DNA of 64,000 nucleotides from IMG/VR virus record IMGVR_UViG_2724679073_000003. One strand, written 5' to 3'. This stretch comes from a virus. Taxonomy: Duplodnaviria > Heunggongvirae > Uroviricota > Caudoviricetes. The position numbers and the translations under genes are program-made. The notes below the pieces were generated by a model that did no database searches, was not told the origin of the DNA, and worked only from the letters and a program-made list of their open reading frames with translations. Position 1 is the first letter of the stretch. Each line of letters opens with the position of its first letter. Shown here piece after piece: positions 4,436 to 64,000 of this stretch.

Positions 4436-4945
4436 TTAATCCCACTCAATCCAGTTGTAGACGATACGAAGTGACGGGCGCACAGCGGCAGTCACATCTT
4501 CGGTACTAAAGTCGATTGCATCACTGTAGATTTTGCAGTCCAACATTTCAATTGTTGTAGCAGCTTTTGTCACAGCGTTAACCCCGGAAGATTTGGATTC
4601 AGGGGTCGCAGCCATCGTGATATCAACATAGTCCTTCGCCGCAATGCGATCTTTAATGAACTGAAGAATATCGCCTTCGATAGTCTCCACGCACTGGACC
4701 TGGATTTCCCCGGAGTTACGGATTGGACCGTGCTGGTTGAACTTCACACCATTTGGGCCATAGTCCTCCACATCCTCGCGGGTCATTTCAGGGATTTGCG
4801 ACGTGCGAACCAGTACGCTGATATCTTCATAGCCTGCAAAAGTGAGCTGGAATTCAGAAGATACCAGTCGTTCGCCTTTGGCCGCGTTGGCAGTATAGCG
4901 GCCCTTAATAAATTTACGGTTTCCCTTAGTGTTATTGTGCCCCAT
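4436..4945 (-). CDS. Putative tail tube protein (T4 gp19-like by length and C-terminal pattern)
   Basis: 169 aa; C-terminal ...IVYNWIEWD resembles the T4 gp19 C-terminus; sits in sheath/tube neighbourhood. Confidence 0.4.
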   Translation of the reverse strand: MGHNNTKGNRKFIKGRYTANAAKGERLVSSEFQLTFAGYEDISVLVRTSQIPEMTREDVEDYGPNGVKFNQHGPIRNSGEIQVQCVETIEGDILQFIKDRIAAKDYVDITMAATPESKSSGVNAVTKAATTIEMLDCKIYSDAIDFSTEDVTAAVRPSLRIVYNWIEWD

Positions 4946-4956
4946 ATAAAATCCTT

Positions 4957-5538
4957 TTACTGGAACGCCCGAACAATATCGGAGCTGTTATATATCGAAG
5001 AACCGGTCAACTGGAGGTTGACGGTGTTTTTCAGGAAATATCCATTACTGTCCCTTGGCGCATCGAGATCAAAACTTAAGTCCTGGATGGCGACATCGGT
5101 GATGTTGATCCGGCGACCAATGTTTAGCGTCACGCGCTCCGGGATTCGACCACCAACATTGGCCGCTTTTAGTTCCGGGCTAATCATGGCTGTCAACGCG
5201 GCGATAGCGCCTGAAACTTCAATGAATGGATTGTTCAAAGCAATGAAAGTTACGGGCAGCGTGAACGTCGGCGGAGTCCCCCCTTCCCAAACCATTAAGC
5301 TATTCCAACGGGCAACAGACGTTGTTTCAGTACCTACTTGCACAAAACCACCCAGAGCACCAGAAACAGATCCCATGGACATACCGGTAAATGGCGCTTC
5401 CCAATTCTGGGCCATGTTCATTGCCGCTCCCTGGCTGATATATCCGGTAACCTGGTACTGAGAGTTCGTTAAAGTAACTTTCAGATATGGCGATACACCG
5501 TCAGCCTGGCTGTAAACCCCATAAGCTATAGGAGCCAT
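4957..5538 (-). CDS. Hypothetical tail/virion protein
   Basis: 193-aa ORF, Gly/Ser/Thr-rich beta-type composition, co-oriented in structural operon. Confidence 0.45.
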   Translation of the reverse strand: MAPIAYGVYSQADGVSPYLKVTLTNSQYQVTGYISQGAAMNMAQNWEAPFTGMSMGSVSGALGGFVQVGTETTSVARWNSLMVWEGGTPPTFTLPVTFIALNNPFIEVSGAIAALTAMISPELKAANVGGRIPERVTLNIGRRINITDVAIQDLSFDLDAPRDSNGYFLKNTVNLQLTGSSIYNSSDIVRAFQ

Positions 5539-5573
5539 TCAAGTTAAAGGCCGGAGTTCTCCGGCCCCCTCCT

Positions 5574-6389
5574 TTAGCCAAGGCGCTTACGGCGCAGTTT
5601 CATTGACTTTTTGCGGGCAAGTTTTGCCGCGCCGGTCTGGGCTTTTCGACGCGCTTTTTTCAGCGCCGATTTTTGAGCCGCAGTCAGACGTTTTTTACGC
5701 AGGCGTTTACGGATGAGTTTGATCTCACCGTTACGAACAACCTTCTTAAATGCTTCAGTCAGCATTTCATCAGAAGTGCCAGCAACAACAAACGCCGCTT
5801 CCAGTTCGTCACGGTCGTCGCTATCTAAACCAGCGATAGAGGCACCAACATCAGCAGCAGCGTCGTCGTCTTCATCGTCAGCCAGTGCTTCGATCAGGTC
5901 ATCATCTACACCGCATGCTGCGAGGAAGTCAGCAACATTTGCCCATGCTTCGTTATAGGCATCGTCCTGTTCTTCTGTAACTTCGGAGTCGTCGTCATCA
6001 GAGATACCAGCGATAGCCTGAACGAAACCATCAAGGGAGTCGAAAGTCAGATCACCGCTATCAGCCCAGGAGAAAACGGCGTCGGCCGCATCACTCAACG
6101 CATTCTGCATAGCACTTCGATTTGCAGCTTCCAGAATCATCTGGTGCGCCTGTTCGACGGTCCATTCTTTACCGTCTTTCCCTTCCAGGATTTGCTCTGG
6201 AGCCGGGGCAGATGGAACGTTATCGTTAGTCTGTGCCGCCGGTTCCGGATTATTATTAATAACCGGATCTGTTGGCGGTTCGGCGCTTGCTCGGGCAGAC
6301 TCCATCAGCTGCACAGGATCAGAGTTCAAAGCGAAACGGGACAGTCCATTCCCCAAAAATGCCCCGGATTGAAAAAAGTTTTTGCTCAT
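5574..6389 (-). CDS. Highly acidic protein with polybasic C-terminal tail
   Basis: Asp/Glu-rich core (DDDDSEVTEEQDD, ADDEDDDAAAD) and C-terminus KLIRKRLRKKRLTAAQKSALKKARRKAQTGAAKLARKKSMKLRRKRLG. Confidence 0.55.
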   Translation of the reverse strand: MSKNFFQSGAFLGNGLSRFALNSDPVQLMESARASAEPPTDPVINNNPEPAAQTNDNVPSAPAPEQILEGKDGKEWTVEQAHQMILEAANRSAMQNALSDAADAVFSWADSGDLTFDSLDGFVQAIAGISDDDDSEVTEEQDDAYNEAWANVADFLAACGVDDDLIEALADDEDDDAAADVGASIAGLDSDDRDELEAAFVVAGTSDEMLTEAFKKVVRNGEIKLIRKRLRKKRLTAAQKSALKKARRKAQTGAAKLARKKSMKLRRKRLG

Positions 6390-6398
6390 TGTATTCCC

Positions 6399-7988
6399 TT
6401 ACTTAATAAGCAGCGGTACGCCCTGGATACGACGGGCTACGCCAGTCGGGCAGCAGGCCCAGACTACTTCCCATTTATCGAATTCCGCCTGCGTAACTTT
6501 CAGCACATACGGTTCTGTACCGTCAGCATCAGGATCACGAGGAGCCACCAGAGCGCCGGAGGCGACAAAGCGATCTAAAAGTTTGGTCATCCCTTTAGTC
6601 AGGCCAGCCGCAGTAATACCGTCCGGGCTATGCTTCATCTGTCGGGCTAACTGGACAAAGAAACGGCTGATTGCATTCATCAGGGATGGGACGTGCTGGA
6701 AGTGCAGATAGTTATCCTGCGTGCAGCAAGTTAAAGCATCGTCGATGATCATCTGGCCAGAGGTGCCAACAGATACTTTATTGAGACGGCCCTTGACCAT
6801 TGCTTCTTCGTCCGGGGTATCTTCCGGATACAGCGGTTGAATTGACGCACGAGCAATGACGGCACGTTCTTCACCAGCCGGTGAGTAATGCCAACCGCCG
6901 ACATCAGAGTTTTTCTTGACGCCACGAGCTTTCGCCGCATACGCCGCGCCAGACAGACCGAAGACCACACGGGATTGGGTCCATTTGTCTTTGCAGGAGA
7001 ACGGGAAGTGATAGACAGCACAGCTTACATAATCGGTACCAAGTAAACCGGTATCTTCAACAGCAGAGAGCGCTTCCGTATACGTCAATGTCGGTTTGAC
7101 ATCAAAGAAGCCATCAATCAGGCGATCAGAACAGATATTACCTAACGCGGTGATCGCCGCATTGTCATAGCAACCCAGGCCGAGAACAGCGGTGTACATG
7201 TACGGCGCATTATTCAGCACTTTAACCGCACGCAGGTACGCAGCGGTTGAGATTTTCGACTGATCGCCGTTGGTACCGCCAGTGAACGCCAACGATTTTT
7301 TGTTTGTTACTTTCGCTGTCGAAATCAGCTCTTCATTAACAACCGCGCGCAGATATTTAGAACGGGCTTCCAGAGCCGTAGGCAGATAACACAAGCGGCC
7401 CATGTCATCTTTCGCTTCTTCCGCCAAAGACACAGTGTGTGTCTCCAGGGTCGTTACCACGCCGAGCGAAGTCGTCTGGGTCAGTTTTAAGAGGAAGCGT
7501 TCATTACCCGCGCTGTCCGCTGTTGCCGTTTCGATGGTTAACTCACGGGTAGGTGAAATACACGGATCACCATCATCAACGTAGATAGCAAAGGCTTCGC
7601 CACTATCAAGTTCAATTTCAGAACCGTATGGCAACGCACTGTAAGCCGGTTCGCCTGATTCATCGAACATAATAATCGGGAACTTCGCATCATCCGGAAC
7701 AGCGCGAACAACATAACCAGACGTTTGCTGAATAGCTTCGTATACATGGCGAATTGGTTCGAACTGTGAGCCGGAAGACGGCTTCAGCGGTTCGCCGAGA
7801 ACATCTTCGTAATTGGACTCAGTAACCGCAAGAACAGTAAACGGCTTGCCACGCGCAAATACGCCAATACCAGCCCATAAGCTGCTATTTAATGCAACAC
7901 CGGTAGATAACGTCGCATCGGCATTGATCGGGCTAACCGCGACGCCGGATGCATTACCTAATGACTGTTGAATTGAATATTGAGACAT
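6399..7988 (-). CDS. Putative tail sheath protein (P1 gene 22 position), 529 aa
   Basis: Size about 57 kDa and position between capsid gene and tube-like genes, as in the P1 21-22-23 block. Confidence 0.5.
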   Translation of the reverse strand: MSQYSIQQSLGNASGVAVSPINADATLSTGVALNSSLWAGIGVFARGKPFTVLAVTESNYEDVLGEPLKPSSGSQFEPIRHVYEAIQQTSGYVVRAVPDDAKFPIIMFDESGEPAYSALPYGSEIELDSGEAFAIYVDDGDPCISPTRELTIETATADSAGNERFLLKLTQTTSLGVVTTLETHTVSLAEEAKDDMGRLCYLPTALEARSKYLRAVVNEELISTAKVTNKKSLAFTGGTNGDQSKISTAAYLRAVKVLNNAPYMYTAVLGLGCYDNAAITALGNICSDRLIDGFFDVKPTLTYTEALSAVEDTGLLGTDYVSCAVYHFPFSCKDKWTQSRVVFGLSGAAYAAKARGVKKNSDVGGWHYSPAGEERAVIARASIQPLYPEDTPDEEAMVKGRLNKVSVGTSGQMIIDDALTCCTQDNYLHFQHVPSLMNAISRFFVQLARQMKHSPDGITAAGLTKGMTKLLDRFVASGALVAPRDPDADGTEPYVLKVTQAEFDKWEVVWACCPTGVARRIQGVPLLIK

Positions 7989-8048
7989 AACTTTCCCTGT
8001 TATGCGCCCCGCACGGGGGCGCTATGTTAAACGGAGAACTTCCCCTGA

Positions 8049-9776
8049 TTACTCAGAGTCACCGGCATCAATCGTGTCGCCGCTAATGAAGTTAAGCCCG
8101 CCTTTTTTGGCCATTGTCAGCGTTACACGAGTGAAGTAATCAGCGCCGTTGCGTGGGTGCATATCGTTGATAGCCGAACCCCACAGCGTGGTACGGTTGA
8201 CCAGCGCCGGAGTGGTCGGATGCTGGAACGGGATGGCCGGGACAGCATCACCAGTCACGAAGCCTGCTTTACCTGGATTTTCATCACGGACGTAGCACAG
8301 CACATCCATCGAGCTGAACTGAATGTTCTCTGTCGTTAAGTTCTTACAAATACCAGCAGGTACTTCGTACACTTTCACGTTACCGAACAGGGTACCGATG
8401 TAGTGAACATACGGAGTCTGGATATAGTCTTCGGCTGGCTGGAAGAAATCCTTCGGCAACTGTTTGAAGAAAGATGCTGCATCAGCACCAGCAAACATCC
8501 CCATCGCACCAGAAGATTTAACGCGCTCAATAATGTCGCGATATACAGTCTGGAATTTGCCACGAATGATGGTTGCCCATACATCAAAGGACTGGTTAAC
8601 CGGCAGAGCGATGTCAAAGGTGTCGGTCGCAAGAGTGCGCCAGATCATGATGCGAAGACGCAGCATATCCTGTTCATGAGACAGGTATTCCTTCAGGGTG
8701 CGGAACTGTAGGGAACCCAGGTCCAGACCAAATTCACGCTGTGCTTCATACGCCGCCTGTACCGTGTGCTCAGCCGCGATAACGAACTGACTTGGGAACA
8801 GGGTGTATTTCTTCATTTCGTGGTTGATCAGCGGGATCAGCTCAGGAGCGGCTTCAATATTGATTTCCGTCTCAATTGCGATCTCAGTGCCTTTATCCGG
8901 CGCTTTGGAGAACGACAGGGCAATCTGACCAATGTTGTAGTTCAGAGAGCAGGTAACAGTGATTTGCTCACCAGCAGCATTAGTAAACGAGTGAAGTAGG
9001 CTGCCGGAACCGTTATCAACAACAGACTTAATACGGTTAACGTAGATGTTAGTGCGACCTTTTCGGATTGGTACATTCTGGCCTTCGAAGTCTTCCATCT
9101 TGAAGGTTGCGGTTTTGCTGGTGCCATCGGAGCTTGCCACCAGCACATAGCGGCGACGTAACTGGCTGTACACACCGACGGATTGCATGTCCAGAACATC
9201 ACCAGCAGCATAAGAACCAAAAGAGGAACCTGCCACGTTAAAGACTTCATAGATGTCGGACTGGTCACGCGTAACCGGAATGAAGGTACACGCATCAGCG
9301 GTAGCTGCCCCCAACTGAACAGGCAGGATCATCGCGAGGAATAAAGGCAGACGCATAACACCGTCAGAAACGCTCATCATCTCTGCTGCGACGGATTCCA
9401 GCATCGCTTTATTAGTGGCATCCATGCTATTGCGGGTGGACTCAATCAGGCAGTTTTCCAGCGTCTGGTGGCAGGAGGCCAGAATTTCCGGACGCGGCAT
9501 AGATTTATGTGCTGCGGCGTAGTCAGCCAGTGCACTTGCCCACGCTGTAGCGATTTGAGCGGTGGCATTATCAGAGATACCCGCAAAAACCGGGTCTTTA
9601 CGTGCAGCTTCAAGGATAGATGCGGCACGCGCGGCATCATCTTTAATGAATTGGTTATCAGTACCGAACTGCGCAGTGCTTGCCCAGCCAAGCACAGCTT
9701 TAGAGCGTTTTGCGATATCTGCAATACGATTCTGGTATTCGCGTAAGTTACTCAATTTACTCTTCCTTAAACACAA
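8049..9776 (-). CDS. Putative major head protein (P1 gene 23 position), 575 aa
   Basis: Large structural ORF immediately adjacent to parS, as gene 23 is in P1; size about 62 kDa. Confidence 0.45.
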   Translation of the reverse strand: MCLRKSKLSNLREYQNRIADIAKRSKAVLGWASTAQFGTDNQFIKDDAARAASILEAARKDPVFAGISDNATAQIATAWASALADYAAAHKSMPRPEILASCHQTLENCLIESTRNSMDATNKAMLESVAAEMMSVSDGVMRLPLFLAMILPVQLGAATADACTFIPVTRDQSDIYEVFNVAGSSFGSYAAGDVLDMQSVGVYSQLRRRYVLVASSDGTSKTATFKMEDFEGQNVPIRKGRTNIYVNRIKSVVDNGSGSLLHSFTNAAGEQITVTCSLNYNIGQIALSFSKAPDKGTEIAIETEINIEAAPELIPLINHEMKKYTLFPSQFVIAAEHTVQAAYEAQREFGLDLGSLQFRTLKEYLSHEQDMLRLRIMIWRTLATDTFDIALPVNQSFDVWATIIRGKFQTVYRDIIERVKSSGAMGMFAGADAASFFKQLPKDFFQPAEDYIQTPYVHYIGTLFGNVKVYEVPAGICKNLTTENIQFSSMDVLCYVRDENPGKAGFVTGDAVPAIPFQHPTTPALVNRTTLWGSAINDMHPRNGADYFTRVTLTMAKKGGLNFISGDTIDAGDSE

Positions 9777-9814
9777 GGCACTTGTGTGAATCCCTTTTCG
9801 GAAGAGATTTTATT

Positions 9815-9835
9815 GAAAGTCACTTGTTGACTTTC
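9815..9835 (-). promoter_or_regulatory. Perfect palindrome GAAAGTCA-N5-TGACTTTC upstream of the head/tail operon (candidate Lpa-dependent late promoter element)
   Basis: 8-bp inverted repeat about 40 bp upstream of the gene-23 start, followed in transcription direction by AATAAAAT -10-like box. Confidence 0.35.
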
Positions 9836-9889
9836 TCGTGACAAGCAATTTTTTTATTTTTTTCGGGAGTAGGGGAGGAAGGTAAAATC

Positions 9890-9982
9890 CAAGGTGAAAT
9901 CGTGGCGATTTCACCTTGAAATTTTAGAGAGATTTACTTTAAAAACAGTAGGTTAATAGTGAAATTTGAATGGCGAAAGTTT
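9890..9982. other. parS: parS partition site (ParB box A heptamers ATTTCAC and box B hexamers TCGCCA)
   Basis: GTGAAATCGTGGCGATTTCAC ... TAGTGAAATTTGAATGGCGAAAG directly downstream of parB stop. Confidence 0.75.
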
Positions 9983-51438: not shown

Positions 51439-52290
51439 TTATTGCGCGCTTTCGGGGTTGTCGTTTACTGGCTGCCCCTTCTTGGTTTTACGGCTGCGCG
51501 TAACTGATGCGGCTGATTTGACCTTTTTCTCTTCGCGAGTGATGGCAATTTGTTTTTTTACATTTTCAATATCTGCCAGGCGATATATTTTTGCTTGCGG
51601 CCAGCGGTCGCAGATGATCGGTTCTATGGAGTCATAAAGGCTAAATTTTGCTTTTTCGAATTCACCGTTGATGATAATTCCATCACGGAGAGTTTCATCG
51701 CAGATAAACACGCCACACAGCGGCACATGGTAACTAACTGATTTACCGTTATTGTAGTTAGGACTACTGGAGATGTAGTGAACGCGCAGCATTGTTTCGC
51801 TAAAGCCGTGTACGCGCATACGGAATTTTTCATCCTCCGGGTACTGCTTCATTAGCTCTTTTGTTGCTTCCAGGTTCTCTATGTATTTCGCACTGTGCTC
51901 ATTGAACCCCGCGCTTTTTTGGATGCGAATGTCCTTATCAATCAGATGAATAATGCGGCCAGCGGTCATGTTGACGCTGTTCACAGCTTCTGTCTGATAA
52001 GTTGTAACCTTGCGCACACCGCGAAGGATGTTAGGCACTGGATATAAAATAGTCTTTGGGATATTGAGGTCTGGGTACTGTTCCAGTTCCCGCGCCATTA
52101 AAGTCCATTTATCAATTTCAGCCTGAATGCTGTCAGTTTCTTTGAACGGTAGAACGACAACCGGGCGTACAGGACGACCGTCGCTGGCTGTATCAACGTG
52201 TTGGGCGCGTGCAACAGCTTTTTTTAGAAAGAGATCCCTGAAGCTGACGAACTCCTGGTACAGTTGTTCGCCGTAGACATAATTTATCAT
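51439..52290 (-). CDS. c1: C1 repressor of lysis, 283 aa
   Basis: Begins MINYVYGEQLYQEFVSFRDLFLKK..., recognised as P1 C1; same length. Confidence 0.95.
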   Translation of the reverse strand: MINYVYGEQLYQEFVSFRDLFLKKAVARAQHVDTASDGRPVRPVVVLPFKETDSIQAEIDKWTLMARELEQYPDLNIPKTILYPVPNILRGVRKVTTYQTEAVNSVNMTAGRIIHLIDKDIRIQKSAGFNEHSAKYIENLEATKELMKQYPEDEKFRMRVHGFSETMLRVHYISSSPNYNNGKSVSYHVPLCGVFICDETLRDGIIINGEFEKAKFSLYDSIEPIICDRWPQAKIYRLADIENVKKQIAITREEKKVKSAASVTRSRKTKKGQPVNDNPESAQ

Positions 52291-52384: not shown

Positions 52385-52401
52385 AGATTTATTAGTGCAT
52401 T
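52385..52401 (-). promoter_or_regulatory. C1 operator between coi and c1
   Basis: Reverse complement AAATGCACTAATAAATC, 14/17. Confidence 0.55.
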
Positions 52402-52610
52402 TATTGTGAGTCTAACTGGTTAGTTGCCATGAGATATTCGATTGTGTCAGTGAGGTCATCCAGGTCGTCTTGGGTGATGCGGTACTCCTGATTGGATATC
52501 TTTGAGTAGTGTTCAGCAATGGCGCGGGCAGCGTCGGTTTCGGCAGGGTCTACAGATAAAGCGTTAGAGCAATATCTAACGTCGTCGATGGTTGGTTGAA
52601 TGAAAGCCAT
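52401..52610 (-). CDS. coi: C1 inactivator Coi, 69 aa
   Basis: 69-aa acidic ORF immediately upstream of c1, co-oriented. Confidence 0.85.
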   Translation of the reverse strand: MAFIQPTIDDVRYCSNALSVDPAETDAARAIAEHYSKISNQEYRITQDDLDDLTDTIEYLMATNQLDSQ

Positions 52611-56568: not shown

Positions 56569-57705
56569 ATGAAAGCAATGGGGAATGAAGTTTATCAAAG
56601 TCAAAAATGCAAGTTGAAATATTCAAAATCTCAAATTGATAGGGCTGCTCAATTGATAAGGCACGGGTGTAGTGACGAAGAAAGGCAGCAATCTATTGAA
56701 ATGATACAAAATTTCCGTGAGCTGCATCTTTATCCATTAATGCTCATGAAAAATCATTTAGCAAGAGCAGCTGCTAAGGTTGACAAGGACAAAAAGATTC
56801 TCGTTGCAAGAAGACTTAAGCGACTTTCTACCATAATAGATAAACTAGAGCGTCCTAGTCTTGATGGAGGCAGAACTAGCAATGCAATTAAATTAACACG
56901 GATGCAGGACGTTGGCGGATGTAGGGCCATTGTCAGAAACTTAGACCAGTTGATACAGCTAAAGGAACGTCTTTTAAAAAGCAAATCTGTTCATAGGATT
57001 GTTAAAGAGTATGATTATCTTACTCCCAAAGACAGCGGCTATAGTGGAATCCACCTTGCATACAGTTGCTTCGATCAGAAAGAGGATCAATATCCGTGGC
57101 GAAAAACAAAGATTGAGATACAGTTAAGAACTCAATTGCAGCATGCTTGGGCTACTAGCCTTGAAATAATTGATACCCTTGAAGGTATCAAGCTGAAAAC
57201 TTCAAGTGAAGGGCATCCAGAATGGAGACGATTTTTCTATCTAGCCGGATGTCTTGTAGCGCACGACGAAAAAGCCTGCACTCTTGATGAGCTAGTTGTA
57301 TCTCAGTATGAAGGCGAGCTTAAAGAGCTGGAACGGACTTTATCTGTACGGAGGAAACTAAGCACATACACCATCGCCTTAAATTTAACTTCTGACGCGA
57401 ATTTGATTAAGAAGTTGCCAAAAAATCATAAGGGGCATTACTTAGTAACAATGAGAAATGCAGAAAACAAGCCCAATACAAAAAACAAAAAAATGTTCCT
57501 AGTGTCTGTTCGCGCATTTAAAACAAAAGAAGCAGATGAAGCCCTTGAGGCCTTAAATAAAGACGATTCTAATCCTAATGTATTGATATCTGTTCTCGTT
57601 GCTACAGATAACATTAAGTCACTAAAAAAAGCCTACCCCAACTATTTTGGCTCAACAAACCAGTTTACAAAATTCTTAGATAAGCATCTTCGTAACGAAG
57701 GATAG
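56569..57705 (+). CDS. RelA/SpoT-family nucleotidyltransferase (toxSAS/CapRel-like), 378 aa
   Basis: Synthetase-domain motifs DVGGCRAIV, GYSGIHLAY, EIQLRTQLQHAWATSLE; visibly AT-rich coding sequence; no adjacent co-oriented partner gene. Confidence 0.75.
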   Translation: MKAMGNEVYQSQKCKLKYSKSQIDRAAQLIRHGCSDEERQQSIEMIQNFRELHLYPLMLMKNHLARAAAKVDKDKKILVARRLKRLSTIIDKLERPSLDGGRTSNAIKLTRMQDVGGCRAIVRNLDQLIQLKERLLKSKSVHRIVKEYDYLTPKDSGYSGIHLAYSCFDQKEDQYPWRKTKIEIQLRTQLQHAWATSLEIIDTLEGIKLKTSSEGHPEWRRFFYLAGCLVAHDEKACTLDELVVSQYEGELKELERTLSVRRKLSTYTIALNLTSDANLIKKLPKNHKGHYLVTMRNAENKPNTKNKKMFLVSVRAFKTKEADEALEALNKDDSNPNVLISVLVATDNIKSLKKAYPNYFGSTNQFTKFLDKHLRNEG

Positions 57706-57713
57706 TTGCTTAA

Positions 57714-57738
57714 TTTTGCCCGGTAATTCCGGGCAAAA
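57714..57738. terminator. Bidirectional terminator hairpin
   Basis: TTTTGCCCGG-TAATT-CCGGGCAAAA. Confidence 0.65.
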
Positions 57739-57741
57739 TTG

Positions 57742-57990
57742 TCAATCTGCATTCAGGAGCAATGCGTTATCTATGATGATCTGCTCCCATTCTTCGAATG
57801 CCCGATCGCGGACGCCCTGGGGAACACTGTTAGTTTTGAAATCGACCACCGTCCGCCATTTCCCGTCCGGGCGGTACATGCGCAGAGCTTTACTTCCCCC
57901 TTCCCTGCGCACCTCAACGTTATGCTTATCAGCAAACTCTTGTAATGCTCGTAGCGTCCCATGCTTTACTGTGTAGTATCGCTTTTTCAA
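57742..57990 (-). CDS. Small protein, 82 aa, with HicA-like GS(K)-x-P-x-G-x-TV motif (uncertain)
   Basis: GGSKALRMYRPDGKWRTVVDF; ATGA overlap with upstream gene. Confidence 0.45.
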   Translation of the reverse strand: MKKRYYTVKHGTLRALQEFADKHNVEVRREGGSKALRMYRPDGKWRTVVDFKTNSVPQGVRDRAFEEWEQIIIDNALLLNAD

Positions 57991-58427
57991 GTTTTCTCTC
58001 CAGCCTGTGCCAAGGCTTCAACTTCCAAATCGTAAGACTCAAACTCATAGTCCTGGTCGTCAACTTCTTCAGGCACTGGCAGTAAATGCCAGGCTGAGTA
58101 TATCTGACCATTATCAAAACGCTCCTGGCTGTAGAGCGTCGCGGCTATGAGTGTTAGCGCCGGGCGGTCATAACGGTAAATTTTGCGAACGTCACGGTCA
58201 ACGAGACGACCGAAATTACCATAACCGCGCTCCAGTAATAATTTTTTAATTTCCGGCCAGTATGGACCATAGCTGCGGTACAGGCGGGGATTTTTCAGTA
58301 ATCGCCCGCGTAGCCCTGACAGGAAGAAATCAACGTATTCGTCTTCTGTCTTTCCTAACAACGCTGTACGGAGTACCGCCTCAAGATATGTTTTATTCGG
58401 TTTTATTGTATCAGATAGTGTGGCCAT
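57987..58427 (-). CDS. Hypothetical protein, 146 aa, downstream of darB
   Basis: Translationally coupled to the 82-aa gene. Confidence 0.45.
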   Translation of the reverse strand: MATLSDTIKPNKTYLEAVLRTALLGKTEDEYVDFFLSGLRGRLLKNPRLYRSYGPYWPEIKKLLLERGYGNFGRLVDRDVRKIYRYDRPALTLIAATLYSQERFDNGQIYSAWHLLPVPEEVDDQDYEFESYDLEVEALAQAGEKT

Positions 58428-58460
58428 ATTATGCGACGCCCGGCGAACCGGGCGCTCCTG

Positions 58461-61400
58461 TTATGCGTATTGTTGGATGACGGCCAGAACGTCCGCCACG
58501 TTGTGTTTTGTCTCGATAATCCACCAGTTACCTGGGAAGTCGCTGTTCTTCGCCTTCGCTGGCAACCAGCGAGCGCCGAATTTCGCCTTGATTGCGTCTT
58601 TCGCACGGAAAAGAACCCCTTTCATGCCGGAGGCTTCCTGAAGCCCAAATACCTCGCCAGCGGCGAATTTTGGTGCGTACATCATCTTCAGGTCGGCGGT
58701 GGATACGCGATAATTCAGACCAAGAGACTGAGCTATGCTGGTGGCATCACCCTGTATTGATGATAACTCTTCTTGTTTCTCGTTTCTGGCGGCAATTTCT
58801 TCCTCCGTGATGTTGCCAAGGGCCAGGTTTATCCGATCAGCGTCTGCCTGTTTCTCTTCATCGGTGCGCCCGGCAAGTACCGTGTTAATTCTGTGCAATA
58901 TCTCCACATGATTCTTGCGCATGCTGAGCAATTCCGGCGTAACCTCGTTAAGGTCCACCAGCCCAAGGATGGCAAGGTCGGAAAACATTGATACCAGGTT
59001 GTAGGTCATGCGATAGCTGAGTTGACCATAGGCTGATGGCAACTTCACCGCATCCATTTGATAGGCATCCATAAATTTAGAGCCGTCGTTTACGACATCC
59101 GCAATTGCCGGTGTGATTTTCCCTGTGGTGGCGGCCTCCCTGATTGCTGTTACCCACGATTGAGTCAGCGCGGCGACTGCATGATTCAGATTGGCTTTCC
59201 GTTCTGCTGCAATGCGCGCGCTTGCTGCGTCCATTGTCTGCTTGATCTCGTCTTTATTGCTGTAAATGCCAATGGTGCCAAACTGTGCTGTGGTGATCTC
59301 ATAATCTGACGCCCGGAACTCATTGGTACCGAAAATGGCATTGGTGACTTCAAGTTCAGAATCCCCGTTACGAGTAGCCCCCTGGCTTGTTTTTTCCGGC
59401 ATTCTGGCGATCGCATCCGCTATTTTCTCCTGAATTGCTTCAGGGGATAGCGTATCTCCGTATGACGCGATTACATCGCCATAATTGGAGCCAAACAGTT
59501 CAACCAGGAATGTTTCTGCCGAACGGATCTGGCGGTTATTCCCTTCCGACATCATACCAAGCACCCATTTTGCAATTGACGACTTCAGCGCGCTGTCACG
59601 GCGATCCGGGTAAACCGCATGCTTCAGTGGGTCCGTATAGGTACCAACAAAATCAATGCTATAGCCTGACTCTGTAGTCTGAACGCCGTATGAGTCAGTG
59701 ATTTTGATCATGCCGCGCTGCTGGAAACGGTAGAAATCGTCACAGGAAACGATGTCGTTAATCCCGGCGATGGAGACGCCACCACTGATTTTCTGCATAA
59801 CAGCATCTTCATCGGGAGTTACATCAACCTGTTTATCCAGCGTCTTCACATCCCAGTTACCCGATTTGGTGCCTTTGAAGGTAAAGATGATCTCCACGTC
59901 TGCGCGCTGGCTGTCGAAGTCCAGCGACTTAATGCGAACAATATCACCGGCACAATCATAGTATTGGCCTACACGCCATGAGCGATCGCCGATAACAAGG
60001 AACTCATTCGCATGGTTAACCAGATCAGGATCAACATCCAGAATGCCTTTATTTATTGCATCCTCCACCAGCGGGCGCAGGCGTTTGATATCCGTCGCGG
60101 CCTTCTGAGTACGGTTCAATAATTTCTCATAGCGGGAGATGGCCTGAGAGATATTAGCCTTGCGCTGAATGGCGCTTTTCAACGACGCGCGATACTGTGC
60201 TAACAACATACGGTCTGTGTGATGGACGCTACCCCAGCGGGCTTTCCAGTCTGCGTTATCAGCTGCTTTGGCCATTACCGCCTGTTTGAATTTGGCGACG
60301 TCGGCGGTGGTCTTTTCAAGTTCCGCTTTGCTTCTCTCCAATTCAGCGGTAAGTACCTCCACATCCTCACCAGCTGCGTGCTGCGCCTTGATGTAGTTCT
60401 GAAGGTCGATAGTAGCCTGTTCTTTCTGGCGAGCGCGTTTCGCAGCTTTCGCCTTATCCATTTGAACCTGCATCATTGCCAGACGTTCGCCGTCATCCTT
60501 CGCGGTATACATCTGCATTTCGATCATATCGTTGGCGTCGGCGTTCTCCATTTCTGACTTATCTGAACGGAGGATATCGGAGATCCAGCCTGCTTTACGC
60601 TTCAGCGTCTTCAGTCGGTATTCATCGAAAGACCCCTTGCCGCAGTAGTAGTGAACGCGAACGCTTGCACGGTTGGAGCCAACTCGGGCACCGCGACCGT
60701 TTCGTTGCGCAATACTGGCTGGAGTCCATGGCAACGTCAGATGATGGATGTCAGTCGTTCCTCGATGCAGGTTGATACCCACCTCTGCCTTTTTGTTGCA
60801 GATGATGATCGGAGTCCGGCCCTCCTGGAAGTCGGCTGCAATCTTTTCCAGACCGCCCAACGACATTTCATTTTGCTGCGCGATATAGGCGTCATACAGA
60901 GCCATTTGCTCGTTGTATTTCGCTATCTGTGCATCTGTTGGTTCATCCGGTAACTCTTTCGGCGGTTTAACCGCTTTCAGTTTCTTACCGGTTTTACCTG
61001 CCTCGGCAACCGTCTGAGCATTCAGTATCCCCACCTTTGAAGGTTCAAGGTTAAGAGCATTGCAGATAATGCGCTTGAGCTTCTGGTGCTGCGTTTTTTC
61101 ATCGGTGAAGATGATTTGCTTACCTTCCGGGAAAAACTCCTTCAGCGTGGCAATCAGCTTCGCGTATTTGGGCGTAACGGGGTGAGTTACGGTCTGTTCG
61201 TCAATGCCAAACCTGGCCAGGCGCTTATTCACTTCCTGCTCGAACGCTTCCGGAACCTGCAACTGAATAAACTCGCCCTTATCTATCAGGGAGTATTGCG
61301 ATTGCTGCGTGATTGAATCATCACTGTCGTCGTCTTCGCTGGTGGCTTGTTTAGGCAAACTGTCCGCCAGCTGCTGCACCGCATCGGCGTACTCCGGCAG

Positions 61401-64000
61401 GAAACGATAGGTGATCCGGCGATAGTACAGGTCCATGTCAGTACATACGCGGTCCATATCCCTGATTATTGAGAAGATCGGACGGGCTTTCTCGTGCTCA
61501 ATCACGCCGTCTTCATTGACCGAGGTCGTTACGCCATTGTTGGCTTTGGCCGCCGCTTCCGCCTGCTGACGCAATTCTTCATACGCCGCCAGTTGTTCTT
61601 CAGTAAGTGGTGCATCCTGCTGGTGTTCGTCCAGCTCCGGGATCTCCACGGTATCCTTAACGTCTTCCGCCGTTTTAAGCGTTACCCAGCGATGGAATAT
61701 ACCGCGCAGCGCATCAAGGTTTTCAAAGCCCACCAGCGCCATTTTTTCTTCAACTTCACCGCTAATTTTCTGTACCGTTTCCAGCCTGGTCTTGCCGAAG
61801 AATTTAACGAAGTCATCAGGACCGTAGATCCCCATGTTCTGCCAGTATTCCTTCGGCAGAACATGAGAAAGCATGTTGTATGCATCGATCGGGGTGTTAA
61901 CGACTGGCGTTGCAGTCAGGAGAACCGGCCCGCGCCCACCATTCTTTTTCATCAGGTACGCGTTTTTAATTGCCATATCTCGCGCCGATTGCGCCACCGC
62001 GCTGGTGGGCAGATAGGCCAGTTGTGACGCTTCGCGACCATTTTTATAGCTATTGCGGTAGTTGTGACCTTCGTCAGCGATCACACTATCGAAGCCCATA
62101 TCCTCAAAGTACGGATACTTCTCTGCTTTTTCGGTGCCGGTATCTGAATACTCCGACAATACCCGGCGACGCGCGGCCTCTTTGCGGTGGGAGTCGGAGT
62201 CCATTGCGCTGGCTACGCGTCCGGCGGCAACGAAGTCATAAAGCATATCCTGTGCATGCTCATCTACGGTGTCATCACGTAGCGGAATGCGGGCGTATTG
62301 TTCTTTGGTAAACACGACTGCACGGTAATTTGAGTGCGGGATCGCGTTCATCCGCGCCGTGATAGTGGCTTCATCTGCCAGCTTAAGAGCATCGCGCATA
62401 ACTGGAGTGCCATCAGTACCAAGAACAGGTTTACCGTTCTCATCGAGCACCTGCACCTGGCGAATCTGATCGCCATCCATCAGCACATCAAGACCGACGA
62501 ACAGGTAGTTACTGAATGCCTCTTCACTCAGGAATTCTTTTGCTTCGTAATACCAGTTTTCCAGCACTGATTTAGGCACTACATACGCAGTACGGGTGGA
62601 GCGACCGTTCTCATAGTTGAACGCCTCAAGCGCCAGCGCGGTCGTGGTTTTACCCAGCCCGGTGCCGAAGCCCAGGATGCCGCGCCCATCTTCGGACAGT
62701 CGGCGCACCTCGCTATTCTGGTAATCAAATGGCTGGCGCTTACCGCTTAATCCCTTCAACCCAAGCGGATCGCCAGAGTGTTCATACGGGATATTGCTAT
62801 TGAACACATCGTTGTATTTGGCAACCAGCTCATCGTAGCGATCGTGCGTCTTGATCCACTTATTGAACTGGTCCTCAAGCAGTGCCATCTGCTCGCGGTA
62901 GCCGTTCGCCGTCGCGCTATCTTTGCCACCGATACGCGCACCATTGAGATACTTTTCCAGCTGTGCCGGGAACCCGGTCGCGTTTTCACCTGATTTACGG
63001 TCCCACTCGTAGCGAATCTCACCTGTTTCTTTATCCTTGCGCTGGACGACACCGTATCGGTGCCCGACGAACAGACCATCACCACCGTGATAGGTGTCAG
63101 AAACCATTTCGTCGCCTTCCAGCTGCACTGACTGCACATAGCGCAGATCCGGATAGCCGTTTTCCTGCAAAAATTCCAGAATGACGGAACGGTCGAACCA
63201 ACGGCTATTGAGCTTAAACCGGATATTCTCTGCTGGCGTCTTGATGCGCTTCTCTTCGATAGCTGCCAGCTGATTAAGGACGTTGTTCTTTACTGGACCG
63301 TCGGGGAGTGTGGCGAGGAATTCCTGTTTTGGAGCCACTATCTCGTTAATGTCGCCGCTGGTGGCGCGGGCGAACGGAACAATCCCGCCATACGGTGAAA
63401 CCGCAATACCAGGGGTGCTGGCCAATAAATTAAGCAACTCTTCATCACTGGCTGGCAGTTCGCCGGTAAACGCAAGGCGGAAATCATCGAGCTGGATTGG
63501 ATCGCGGGTGAGATCGCTATAGAGATAACGCAGGGTGTCCTGATAGCTGGTGGAGTCATAACTTGCGCTGGAATCATGCGTAACCAGCTTCCCTGTCAGC
63601 TCGTCAGAAATAGTGCCATCCAGCTTAATTGCACCACGGAAAGCAAACCAGGCGCGCGCACCGCTCCCCGACAATTTCGCTATCGGACCGCGACCGGGGT
63701 TACCAAAACGGTCAATCTCTGCCTGCAAACGGGATACCAGAGAAAGGCGCTGCTGTTCGATTTGTTCAGCACTATGCCCGGCGGCCTTCATGTCCTGATA
63801 TTCAATTAACATCCGGCCAATCATCGCCCCGCGATACAAGCGTTCACGGTATTTTTCAGGCTGGCTGTTAATCCAGTCCACCAGCTGCACCATATCGTCG
63901 CTGATTGATGTGGTGTACTTATCGCGGACATTTGCCATCTGGGTAAATGTCATGCCGAGACGGCCTTCTGTTGTAGTCAGGTTACGCTGAAGAGCCTCCC
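58461..64000 (-). CDS. darB: DarB-like giant antirestriction protein with SNF2/DExH helicase, N-terminus beyond window end
   Basis: ORF open to window end; helicase motifs GFGTGLGKTTTALA, VIADEGHNYRN, LLLTATPVVNTP; at least 1830 aa in window. Confidence 0.7.
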   Translation of the reverse strand, partial: EALQRNLTTTEGRLGMTFTQMANVRDKYTTSISDDMVQLVDWINSQPEKYRERLYRGAMIGRMLIEYQDMKAAGHSAEQIEQQRLSLVSRLQAEIDRFGNPGRGPIAKLSGSGARAWFAFRGAIKLDGTISDELTGKLVTHDSSASYDSTSYQDTLRYLYSDLTRDPIQLDDFRLAFTGELPASDEELLNLLASTPGIAVSPYGGIVPFARATSGDINEIVAPKQEFLATLPDGPVKNNVLNQLAAIEEKRIKTPAENIRFKLNSRWFDRSVILEFLQENGYPDLRYVQSVQLEGDEMVSDTYHGGDGLFVGHRYGVVQRKDKETGEIRYEWDRKSGENATGFPAQLEKYLNGARIGGKDSATANGYREQMALLEDQFNKWIKTHDRYDELVAKYNDVFNSNIPYEHSGDPLGLKGLSGKRQPFDYQNSEVRRLSEDGRGILGFGTGLGKTTTALALEAFNYENGRSTRTAYVVPKSVLENWYYEAKEFLSEEAFSNYLFVGLDVLMDGDQIRQVQVLDENGKPVLGTDGTPVMRDALKLADEATITARMNAIPHSNYRAVVFTKEQYARIPLRDDTVDEHAQDMLYDFVAAGRVASAMDSDSHRKEAARRRVLSEYSDTGTEKAEKYPYFEDMGFDSVIADEGHNYRNSYKNGREASQLAYLPTSAVAQSARDMAIKNAYLMKKNGGRGPVLLTATPVVNTPIDAYNMLSHVLPKEYWQNMGIYGPDDFVKFFGKTRLETVQKISGEVEEKMALVGFENLDALRGIFHRWVTLKTAEDVKDTVEIPELDEHQQDAPLTEEQLAAYEELRQQAEAAAKANNGVTTSVNEDGVIEHEKARPIFSIIRDMDRVCTDMDLYYRRITYRFLPEYADAVQQLADSLPKQATSEDDDSDDSITQQSQYSLIDKGEFIQLQVPEAFEQEVNKRLARFGIDEQTVTHPVTPKYAKLIATLKEFFPEGKQIIFTDEKTQHQKLKRIICNALNLEPSKVGILNAQTVAEAGKTGKKLKAVKPPKELPDEPTDAQIAKYNEQMALYDAYIAQQNEMSLGGLEKIAADFQEGRTPIIICNKKAEVGINLHRGTTDIHHLTLPWTPASIAQRNGRGARVGSNRASVRVHYYCGKGSFDEYRLKTLKRKAGWISDILRSDKSEMENADANDMIEMQMYTAKDDGERLAMMQVQMDKAKAAKRARQKEQATIDLQNYIKAQHAAGEDVEVLTAELERSKAELEKTTADVAKFKQAVMAKAADNADWKARWGSVHHTDRMLLAQYRASLKSAIQRKANISQAISRYEKLLNRTQKAATDIKRLRPLVEDAINKGILDVDPDLVNHANEFLVIGDRSWRVGQYYDCAGDIVRIKSLDFDSQRADVEIIFTFKGTKSGNWDVKTLDKQVDVTPDEDAVMQKISGGVSIAGINDIVSCDDFYRFQQRGMIKITDSYGVQTTESGYSIDFVGTYTDPLKHAVYPDRRDSALKSSIAKWVLGMMSEGNNRQIRSAETFLVELFGSNYGDVIASYGDTLSPEAIQEKIADAIARMPEKTSQGATRNGDSELEVTNAIFGTNEFRASDYEITTAQFGTIGIYSNKDEIKQTMDAASARIAAERKANLNHAVAALTQSWVTAIREAATTGKITPAIADVVNDGSKFMDAYQMDAVKLPSAYGQLSYRMTYNLVSMFSDLAILGLVDLNEVTPELLSMRKNHVEILHRINTVLAGRTDEEKQADADRINLALGNITEEEIAARNEKQEELSSIQGDATSIAQSLGLNYRVSTADLKMMYAPKFAAGEVFGLQEASGMKGVLFRAKDAIKAKFGARWLPAKAKNSDFPGNWWIIETKHNVADVLAVIQQYA

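What the first reader, a model, noticed from the sequence alone, without database searches (positions are those of the whole stretch)
57742..58427. Two translationally coupled small genes downstream of darB, converging on the RelA/SpoT gene
A 146-aa and an 82-aa ORF overlap by ATGA and lie between darB and the bidirectional terminator. The 82-aa product has a GGSK...RPDGKWRTVV stretch reminiscent of HicA-type small RNase folds but lacks the usual histidine. Small coupled pairs next to a defence gene may be a toxin-antitoxin or Dar accessory module.
Basis: inference. Interest (0 to 1): 0.45.

Follow-up and report, generated by a model that had tools for sequence, protein, structure and literature searches.

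The report
Phage P1 ulx and lxc genes
The two small overlapping genes are the already known phage P1 genes ulx (a capsid-packaged helper of the DarB anti-restriction protein) and lxc/bof (a co-repressor that helps the C1 immunity repressor), not a toxin-antitoxin pair, so the finding is ordinary.

Summary
The window is a P1-type phage/plasmid prophage. The 82-aa ORF (57742-57990, minus) is 100% identical to P1 Lxc (formerly Bof). The 146-aa ORF (57987-58427, minus) is 144/146 identical to P1 Ulx. Both sit in P1's own order, darB-ulx-lxc.

[quoted passage not shown] Ulx is a virion head protein of the six-protein Dar system that aids DarB incorporation and protection against EcoB/EcoK.

Two details of the observation are wrong or overstated. 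The overlap is TTGA, because lxc starts at TTG, not ATGA. The "bidirectional terminator" is a strong hairpin without a 3' U-tract.

The real difference from P1 lies next door: a CapRel-type RelA/SpoT defence gene replaces res/mod, as in phage SJ46.

Verdict: already known, low interest.

The parts
57742..57990 (-). lxc (formerly bof): 82-aa co-repressor ('modulator') of the C1 immunity repressor; TTG start codon
   Evidence: 82/82 aa identical to P1 Lxc AAQ13983. The curated P1 record annotates it as 'modulator of C1 action; enhances binding of C1 to all its operators'. PHROG 2160, 7.8e-57. Function from PMC8546580.
57987..58427 (-). ulx: 146-aa Dar-system protein packaged in the virion head; aids DarB incorporation
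   Evidence: 144/146 aa identical to P1 Ulx AAQ13984. PHROG 1629 'Ulx-like anti-restriction', 4.5e-66. Detected in the P1 virion proteome as a head protein that 'aids DarB localization' (PMC9024508). Listed as a Dar component in PMC12810830 and PMC12707154.
57987..57990 (-). 4-nt overlap TTGA: lxc start codon TTG overlapping the ulx stop codon TGA
   Evidence: Read directly from the minus-strand sequence. Overlaps of 1 to 8 nt are conserved in divergent relatives.
57998..58001 (-). GGAG Shine-Dalgarno for lxc, 7 nt upstream of the TTG start, inside the end of ulx
   Evidence: Read directly from the sequence; inference.
58035..58063 (-). P1lxc sigma-70 promoter inside ulx, assigned by homology to the curated P1 annotation
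   Evidence: Hexamers TTGACG / GAGTCT are identical to P1. Not found by the generic consensus scan.
58213..58241 (-). P2lxc sigma-70 promoter inside ulx, assigned by homology to the P1 annotation
   Evidence: Hexamers TTATTA / TAATTT are identical to P1.
58358..58384 (-). P3lxc promoter position; the -10 hexamer differs from P1 (CATTGT in P1, CGTTGT here)
58436..58455 (-). 8-bp G+C-rich hairpin in the 33-nt gap between the darB stop and the ulx ATG
   Evidence: dG -17.1 kcal/mol, z -2.2. Function not tested.
57711..57741 (.). 13-bp hairpin filling the 36-nt gap between the convergent RelA/SpoT and lxc stop codons; likely RNA 3'-end or termination element, but not canonical
   Evidence: dG -20.4 (minus strand) and -22.5 (plus strand), z about -4.5, with 0 of 200 shuffles as stable. 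Not called as a terminator. SJ46 carries a different hairpin sequence at the same place.
58461..64000 (-). darB (3' part; the gene runs off the window edge), first gene of the darB-ulx-lxc cluster
   Evidence: Annotated DarB in P1 at the homologous position. The reading frame is open to the window end.

Best explanation
These are the phage P1 genes ulx and lxc, the two distal genes of the conserved darB-ulx-lxc cluster of a P1-type plasmid prophage.

Ulx is made with DarB, packaged into the capsid as part of the six-protein Dar system (Hdf, DarA, DdrA, DdrB, DarB, Ulx), and helps DarB get into the head. The injected DNA is thereby protected in cis from EcoB/EcoK type I restriction.

Lxc has a different job. 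It is a small co-repressor that joins C1 bound to its operators in a ternary complex. This strengthens C1 binding, lowers c1 expression, and blocks the anti-repressor Coi from stripping C1 off DNA, so it tunes the lysis-lysogeny decision. It is translated from a TTG that overlaps the ulx stop (TTGA) behind a GGAG. In P1 it also has its own constitutive promoters inside ulx.

Shown here: the identity of the genes, the conserved gene order, and the presence of C1 and Coi in the window. Taken from published P1 work: the biochemical functions. Inferred: translational coupling.
For: - **Identity.** Lxc is 82/82 and Ulx 144/146 identical to P1. The DNA is 97.7% identical to P1 and more than 98% to P7, RCS47 and SJ46, with annotated Ulx/Lxc/DarB under the match. 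The curated P1 record shows the same darB-ulx-lxc order and lxc promoters inside ulx, and two of three promoter hexamer pairs are identical here.
- **Selection.** All 10 lxc substitutions relative to P1 are synonymous.
- **Lxc partners.** C1 (279/283) and Coi (66/69) are encoded in the window.
- **Literature on Ulx.** It is a Dar component and virion head protein that aids DarB (PMC9024508; PMC12810830; PMC12707154). Both genes are non-essential (PMC10695390).
- **Conserved arrangement.** In three divergent P1-like lineages (Ulx 47-55% identical, Lxc 21-27%), the order darB, ulx, overlapping small lxc homolog is kept.
Against: Nothing contradicts the identification. The caveats are these. The functions are transferred from P1 rather than tested in this element. 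The primary Ulx paper (Piya et al. 2017, Mol Microbiol 105:399) could not be read here, so Ulx's role is cited from later papers. Translational coupling is inferred from the overlap and the Shine-Dalgarno only. In P1, lxc also has its own promoters, so coupling may not be its main route of expression.
Confidence: 0.95

Rival explanations
1. The pair is a type II toxin-antitoxin module: the 82-aa protein is a HicA-like RNase toxin that has lost its catalytic histidine, and the 146-aa protein is its antitoxin.
For: - The genes are small and overlapping.
- The AlphaFold model of Lxc has an alpha-beta-beta-beta-alpha core, the same order of elements as HicA/dsRBD-like folds.
Against: - None of 20 Lxc family members hits Pfam HicA_toxin even at E<=10, whereas E. 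coli HicA hits it at 3e-7.
- hhalign of the Lxc family against E. coli HicA gives 0.24% probability, with 8 columns aligned out of register.
- The GGSK and RPDGKWRTVV motifs vary across the family, and no member has His at the K34 position.
- Ulx has no HicB, antitoxin or DNA-binding-domain signal.
- Gene order is the putative 'antitoxin' first, the 146-aa protein is a virion protein, and the pair was never seen apart from darB.
- Lxc was over-expressed from an inducible plasmid in E. coli for lysogeny assays, and the passages read mention no toxicity.
Confidence: 0.02
2. Both proteins are Dar accessory proteins. On this reading Lxc has a second, undescribed role in anti-restriction or capsid loading, which would explain why it stays fused to the darB-ulx unit in all P1-like lineages.
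For: darB-ulx-lxc synteny with overlapping ulx/lxc reading frames is conserved even where Lxc has diverged to 21-27% identity.
Against: - Lxc is absent from the published list of virion proteins; the term 'lxc' occurs zero times in the virion proteome paper, while Ulx and DarB are listed.
- The Dar system is described as six proteins that do not include Lxc.
- Lxc has a fully sufficient known function with C1.
- In P1 it has its own constitutive promoters, separate from darB expression.
Confidence: 0.04
3. Lxc is an evolutionarily exapted, catalytically dead HicA/dsRBD-like domain that now serves as a protein-DNA complex clamp. Under this view it works as a co-repressor, as published, but descends from a toxin fold.
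For: - The secondary-structure order is the same as HicA.
- HicA-family entries occur among the top weak Foldseek matches.
Against: - All structural scores are at noise level.
- The profile comparison is negative.
- The alpha-beta-beta-beta-alpha arrangement is a very common small-domain topology.
- The C-terminal helix of Lxc (65-81) is much longer than in HicA and carries most of the invariant residues: R61, W68, I72 and L79.
Confidence: 0.07

Closest known systems
Bacteriophage P1 Lxc (Bof), co-repressor of C1
   Same: The protein is 100% identical, with the same TTG start and the same position downstream of ulx and darB. C1 and Coi are present in the same element.
   Different: Nothing differs at the protein level; there are 10 synonymous DNA differences. 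Downstream context differs: in P1, lxc is followed by mod/res in the same orientation, whereas here it meets a convergent CapRel-type gene.
Bacteriophage P1 Ulx, component of the Dar anti-restriction system
   Same: The protein is 144/146 identical, has the same length and position, and overlaps lxc.
   Different: There are two substitutions, I83F and Q101H relative to P1. The P3lxc -10 hexamer inside the gene differs by one base.
Salmonella phage SJ46 and Escherichia phage vB_EcoM-673R5 (Punavirus) lxc-ulx-darB region
   Same: The local architecture is the same: mat, then a RelA/SpoT (CapRel) gene, converging on lxc-ulx-darB. 673R5 is 99.5% identical over the whole finding including the hairpin.
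   Different: The CapRel protein is only 74% identical to that of SJ46, and the intergenic hairpin has a different sequence.
HicA toxin (Pfam PF07927) of HicAB toxin-antitoxin systems
   Same: Both are small proteins of about 60-80 aa with an alpha-beta-beta-beta-alpha order of secondary-structure elements.
   Different: There is no sequence or profile similarity, no catalytic His, and structural scores at noise level. The gene order is different and the neighbour is unrelated. Lxc has a known non-toxic regulatory function.

Membership tests
P1 Lxc/Bof (C1 co-repressor) | Sequence homology to P1 Lxc over the full length | tested here: met
   82/82 identical; PHROG 2160 at 7.8e-57.
P1 Lxc/Bof (C1 co-repressor) | Encoded in a P1-type element that also encodes its partners C1 and Coi | tested here: met
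   C1 is 279/283 identical at 51439..52290, and Coi is 66/69 identical at 52401..52610.
P1 Lxc/Bof (C1 co-repressor) | Position immediately downstream of, and overlapping, ulx in the darB-ulx-lxc cluster | tested here: met
   The arrangement is conserved in divergent relatives.
P1 Lxc/Bof (C1 co-repressor) | [quoted passage not shown] | not testable with these tools
   Published for the identical P1 protein (PMC8546580).
P1 Ulx (Dar anti-restriction system) | Sequence homology to P1 Ulx over the full length | tested here: met
   144/146 identical; PHROG 1629 'Ulx-like anti-restriction' at 4.5e-66.
P1 Ulx (Dar anti-restriction system) | Located directly downstream of darB | tested here: met
   The darB stop is at 58461 and the ulx ATG at 58427. 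The same order holds in four lineages.
P1 Ulx (Dar anti-restriction system) | Packaged in the virion head and needed for DarB incorporation and EcoB/EcoK protection | not testable with these tools
   Published for P1. The primary paper is not held in the library.
HicA toxin (PF07927) | Match to the HicA_toxin profile | tested here: not met
   0 of 20 Lxc family members hit it at E<=10. The positive control, E. coli HicA, hits at 3e-7. hhalign probability is 0.24%.
HicA toxin (PF07927) | Catalytic histidine in the G-S-H type motif on strand beta2 | tested here: not met
   The position is K34 in Lxc and K/R/Q in relatives. The G-S dipeptide is itself not conserved.
HicA toxin (PF07927) | Significant 3D similarity to solved HicA structures | tested here: not met
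HicA toxin (PF07927) | Adjacent HicB-type antitoxin with a DNA-binding domain | tested here: not met
   Ulx has no Pfam, NCBIfam, PADLOC or PDB sequence match of that kind.
HicA toxin (PF07927) | Toxicity on expression, neutralised by the partner | not testable with these tools
   Published IPTG-induced Lxc expression in E. coli was used for lysogeny assays, and the passages read mention no toxicity.

The most novel reading that the evidence does not exclude
The most novel reading not excluded concerns why darB, ulx and lxc stay together. The tight, overlapping darB-ulx-lxc linkage is kept across P1-like lineages in which Lxc has diverged to about 21-27% identity. This could reflect an undescribed functional tie between the immunity co-repressor and the capsid-delivered Dar system, for example Lxc dosage being set by late darB-operon transcription. 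Alternatively, Lxc could be an exapted, catalytically dead HicA/dsRBD-like domain.
Probability: 0.08. Interest if true: 0.35.

Novelty: already known. Interest (0 to 1): 0.07.

Why it matters
It matters little, because both genes are textbook P1 genes with published functions. The useful outcome is negative: the pair should not be listed as a candidate toxin-antitoxin or new defence accessory. Two by-products may help annotation. First, diverged Lxc homologs (21-27% identity, annotated 'hypothetical protein') sit downstream of ulx in Enterobacter and other P1-like plasmid prophages. Second, there is now a confident fold model for Lxc, which has no solved structure.

Tried and rejected
- **HicA/HicB membership.** Pfam, NCBIfam and PADLOC scans at lax thresholds were negative for both proteins and for all family members. 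PDB sequence and profile searches were negative. hhalign of the Lxc family against E. coli HicA was negative.
- **Single-sequence AlphaFold model of Lxc.** pLDDT was 61, too weak to use, and its Foldseek search was uninformative.
- **First Lxc homolog search.** It returned only near-identical or frameshifted copies. The exhaustive HMMER search added two real relatives, P0057 and P0058, plus spurious repeat-protein hits. Real diversity came from reading the gene downstream of divergent ulx homologs.
- **Building a HicA family profile from the PDB.** This failed because phmmer with E. coli HicA retrieves only itself.
- **AFDB fold search.** The library was unavailable.
- **Primary papers.** Piya 2017 and Lobocka 2004 are not held.
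- **Canonical terminator and promoter calls in 57400-58800.** None was relevant.

Full report
**1. What is in the sequence**

The ORF listing gives an 82-aa ORF at 57742..57990 (-) starting with TTG, and a 146-aa ORF at 57987..58427 (-) starting with ATG. The minus-strand sequence reads ...GAG AAA ACT TGA for the end of the 146-aa ORF and TTG AAA AAG CGA... for the start of the 82-aa ORF. A GGAG lies 7 nt upstream of the TTG.

Upstream on the same strand is a very large ORF ending at 58461 whose frame stays open to the window edge. Downstream, on the opposite strand, a 378-aa ORF (56569..57705) carries a RelA_SpoT domain (PF04607, 3e-12). The coordinates, lengths, 4-nt overlap and neighbourhood are thus as described.

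**2. Identity**

Megablast of 57700-58470 against phage records finds 18 Punavirus records at 97.5-99.5% identity, including P1, P7, SJ46, RCS47 and phi456. The features under the match are annotated Ulx, Lxc ('modulator protein', bof) and DarB.

The curated P1 record AF234172 shows darB, ulx and lxc in this order and orientation. It annotates lxc as 'modulator of C1 action; enhances binding of C1 to all its operators; lowers expression of C1; former name bof'. It also places three sigma-70 promoters for lxc inside ulx.

- The 82-aa product is 82/82 identical to P1 Lxc.
- The 146-aa product is 144/146 identical to P1 Ulx.
- Over the 727 aligned bases there are 17 substitutions and no gaps. Ten fall in lxc and all are synonymous, since the protein is identical. 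This is a direct sign of purifying selection.
- The P1lxc and P2lxc promoter hexamers are identical to P1. The P3lxc -10 differs by one base.
- PHROGs places the proteins in phrog_2160 (Lxc) and phrog_1629 ('Ulx-like anti-restriction').
- Lxc's partners are in the same window: C1 is 279/283 identical (51439..52290) and Coi is 66/69 identical (52401..52610).

**3. What the genes do (from the literature)**

Lxc ('lowers expression of c1') is a co-repressor. [quoted passage not shown] Its promoters are not C1-controlled, so it is taken to be constitutive. Over-expressing it from an IPTG-inducible plasmid raises the probability of lysogeny (PMC8546580). That last experiment also argues against toxicity.

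[quoted passage not shown] The proteins are incorporated in order, with DarB and Ulx late. Ulx, DarB and DdrB are tied to the EcoB/EcoK phenotype (PMC12810830; PMC12707154). Ulx was detected by LC-MS/MS in purified P1 virions as a head protein that 'aids DarB localization', whereas lxc is not mentioned in that paper (PMC9024508). A CRISPRi screen lists lxc, ulx and darB as non-essential (PMC10695390). The primary Ulx paper (Piya et al. 2017) is not held in the library.

**4. Is the pair a module of its own?**

Ulx homologs reach down to about 47% identity on 80-100 kb P1-like contigs. I looked at three divergent lineages: L003/L004 from Enterobacter, L005, and L006/L007. In each, a 2250-2310-aa DarB is followed by ulx and then by an 83-87-aa gene that overlaps the ulx stop by 1-8 nt.

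These small genes are diverged Lxc homologs. Pairwise BLASTP gives 2e-7 and 1e-5, and a profile search unites them with annotated 'modulator proteins' from Salmonella, Citrobacter and Pantoea.

The unit that is conserved is therefore darB-ulx-lxc, always inside P1-like elements. The small pair was not seen as a free-standing cassette, which is how toxin-antitoxin modules usually occur.

**5. The HicA idea**

Sequence tests were all negative.
- No Pfam or NCBIfam hit for Lxc at E<=10.
- None in any of 20 family members.
- No PDB hit by sequence or profile.
- hhalign of the family against E. coli HicA (sequence verified as PDB 6hpb_A) gives 0.24% probability over 8 out-of-register columns.
- As a positive control, E. 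coli HicA itself hits PF07927 at 3e-7.

The resemblance is at most a shared, very common small-domain topology, and membership in the HicA family is not supported. Ulx shows no HicB, antitoxin or DNA-binding signal by sequence.

**6. The 'bidirectional terminator'**

The 36-nt gap between the two convergent stop codons is almost entirely a 13-bp hairpin at 57711-57741. Its dG is -20.4 on the minus strand and -22.5 on the plus strand, z is about -4.5, and none of 200 shuffles is as stable. On both strands the transcript would read UUUU-stem-AAAA, so there is no 3' U-tract, and the consensus scan does not call a terminator.

SJ46 has a hairpin of different sequence at the same position. This suggests a selected RNA 3'-end or termination element that belongs to the CapRel cassette. 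Its function is inferred, not shown.

**7. What actually differs from P1**

In P1, lxc is followed by mod and res (EcoPI) on the same strand. Here that slot holds a 378-aa RelA/SpoT-domain gene in convergent orientation. It is 98% identical to the gene in phage vB_EcoM-673R5 and 74% identical to the SJ46 gene. It also matches PADLOC model PDC-S33 at 6.7e-86.

The SJ46 gene is CapRel^SJ46, a fused toxSAS toxin-antitoxin that senses phage capsid protein (PMC9712102). This lies outside the finding but is the more interesting feature of the neighbourhood. It is a known kind of system in a known location.

**8. Verdict**

The toxin-antitoxin/HicA interpretation is not supported, and the 'Dar accessory' alternative is right for ulx only. 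Both genes are already known and experimentally characterised in P1. Interest is low.

Noticed in passing
window 56569-57705 (+): A 378-aa RelA/SpoT-domain gene occupies the slot of P1 res/mod. It is 74% identical to the CapRel^SJ46 locus protein of phage SJ46, a fused toxSAS toxin-antitoxin anti-phage system, and matches PADLOC PDC-S33 at 6.7e-86. It is probably a distinct CapRel allele, possibly with a different capsid-sensing specificity.
   Followed up: partly
window 57711-57741: A very stable 13-bp hairpin fills the gap between the convergent RelA/SpoT and lxc stop codons. It lacks a 3' U-tract on either strand, so it is not a canonical intrinsic terminator. SJ46 has a different hairpin sequence at the same place.
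   Followed up: partly
window 58436-58455 (-): An 8-bp G+C hairpin (dG -17 kcal/mol, z -2.2) lies between the darB stop and the ulx ATG, preceded by AGGAG. It could modulate read-through or ulx translation.
   Followed up: no
L003 4425-4685, L005 4440-4691, L006 4420-4683: In Enterobacter and other P1-like plasmid prophages, 83-87-aa 'hypothetical proteins' overlap the end of ulx. They are diverged Lxc homologs (21-27% identity) that word-based searches miss, and they are unannotated as such in databases.
   Followed up: yes
L002 (ON470615.2) 4881-5980 and 6762-12771: In the closest public record, vB_EcoM-673R5, both the RelA/SpoT gene and darB are split into several CDS, most likely by frameshift errors in that record. 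The RelA/SpoT gene is intact in the window, and the portion of darB within the window is a single open frame.
   Followed up: partly
proteins P0009, P0014 (database entries named 'modulator protein'): Some database Lxc entries at 60-74% identity are frameshifted copies that read into the alternative frame (the 63-aa ORF at 57771..57962). They are not real variants.
   Followed up: yes
window 58358-58363 (-): The -10 hexamer of the annotated P3lxc promoter differs from P1 (CATTGT in P1, CGTTGT here), while P1lxc and P2lxc are unchanged.
   Followed up: no
Ulx homologs P0016, P0017, P0021 and others: NCBI names Ulx homologs 'peptide-binding protein'. No Pfam, NCBIfam or PDB match found here explains that name.
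   Followed up: no
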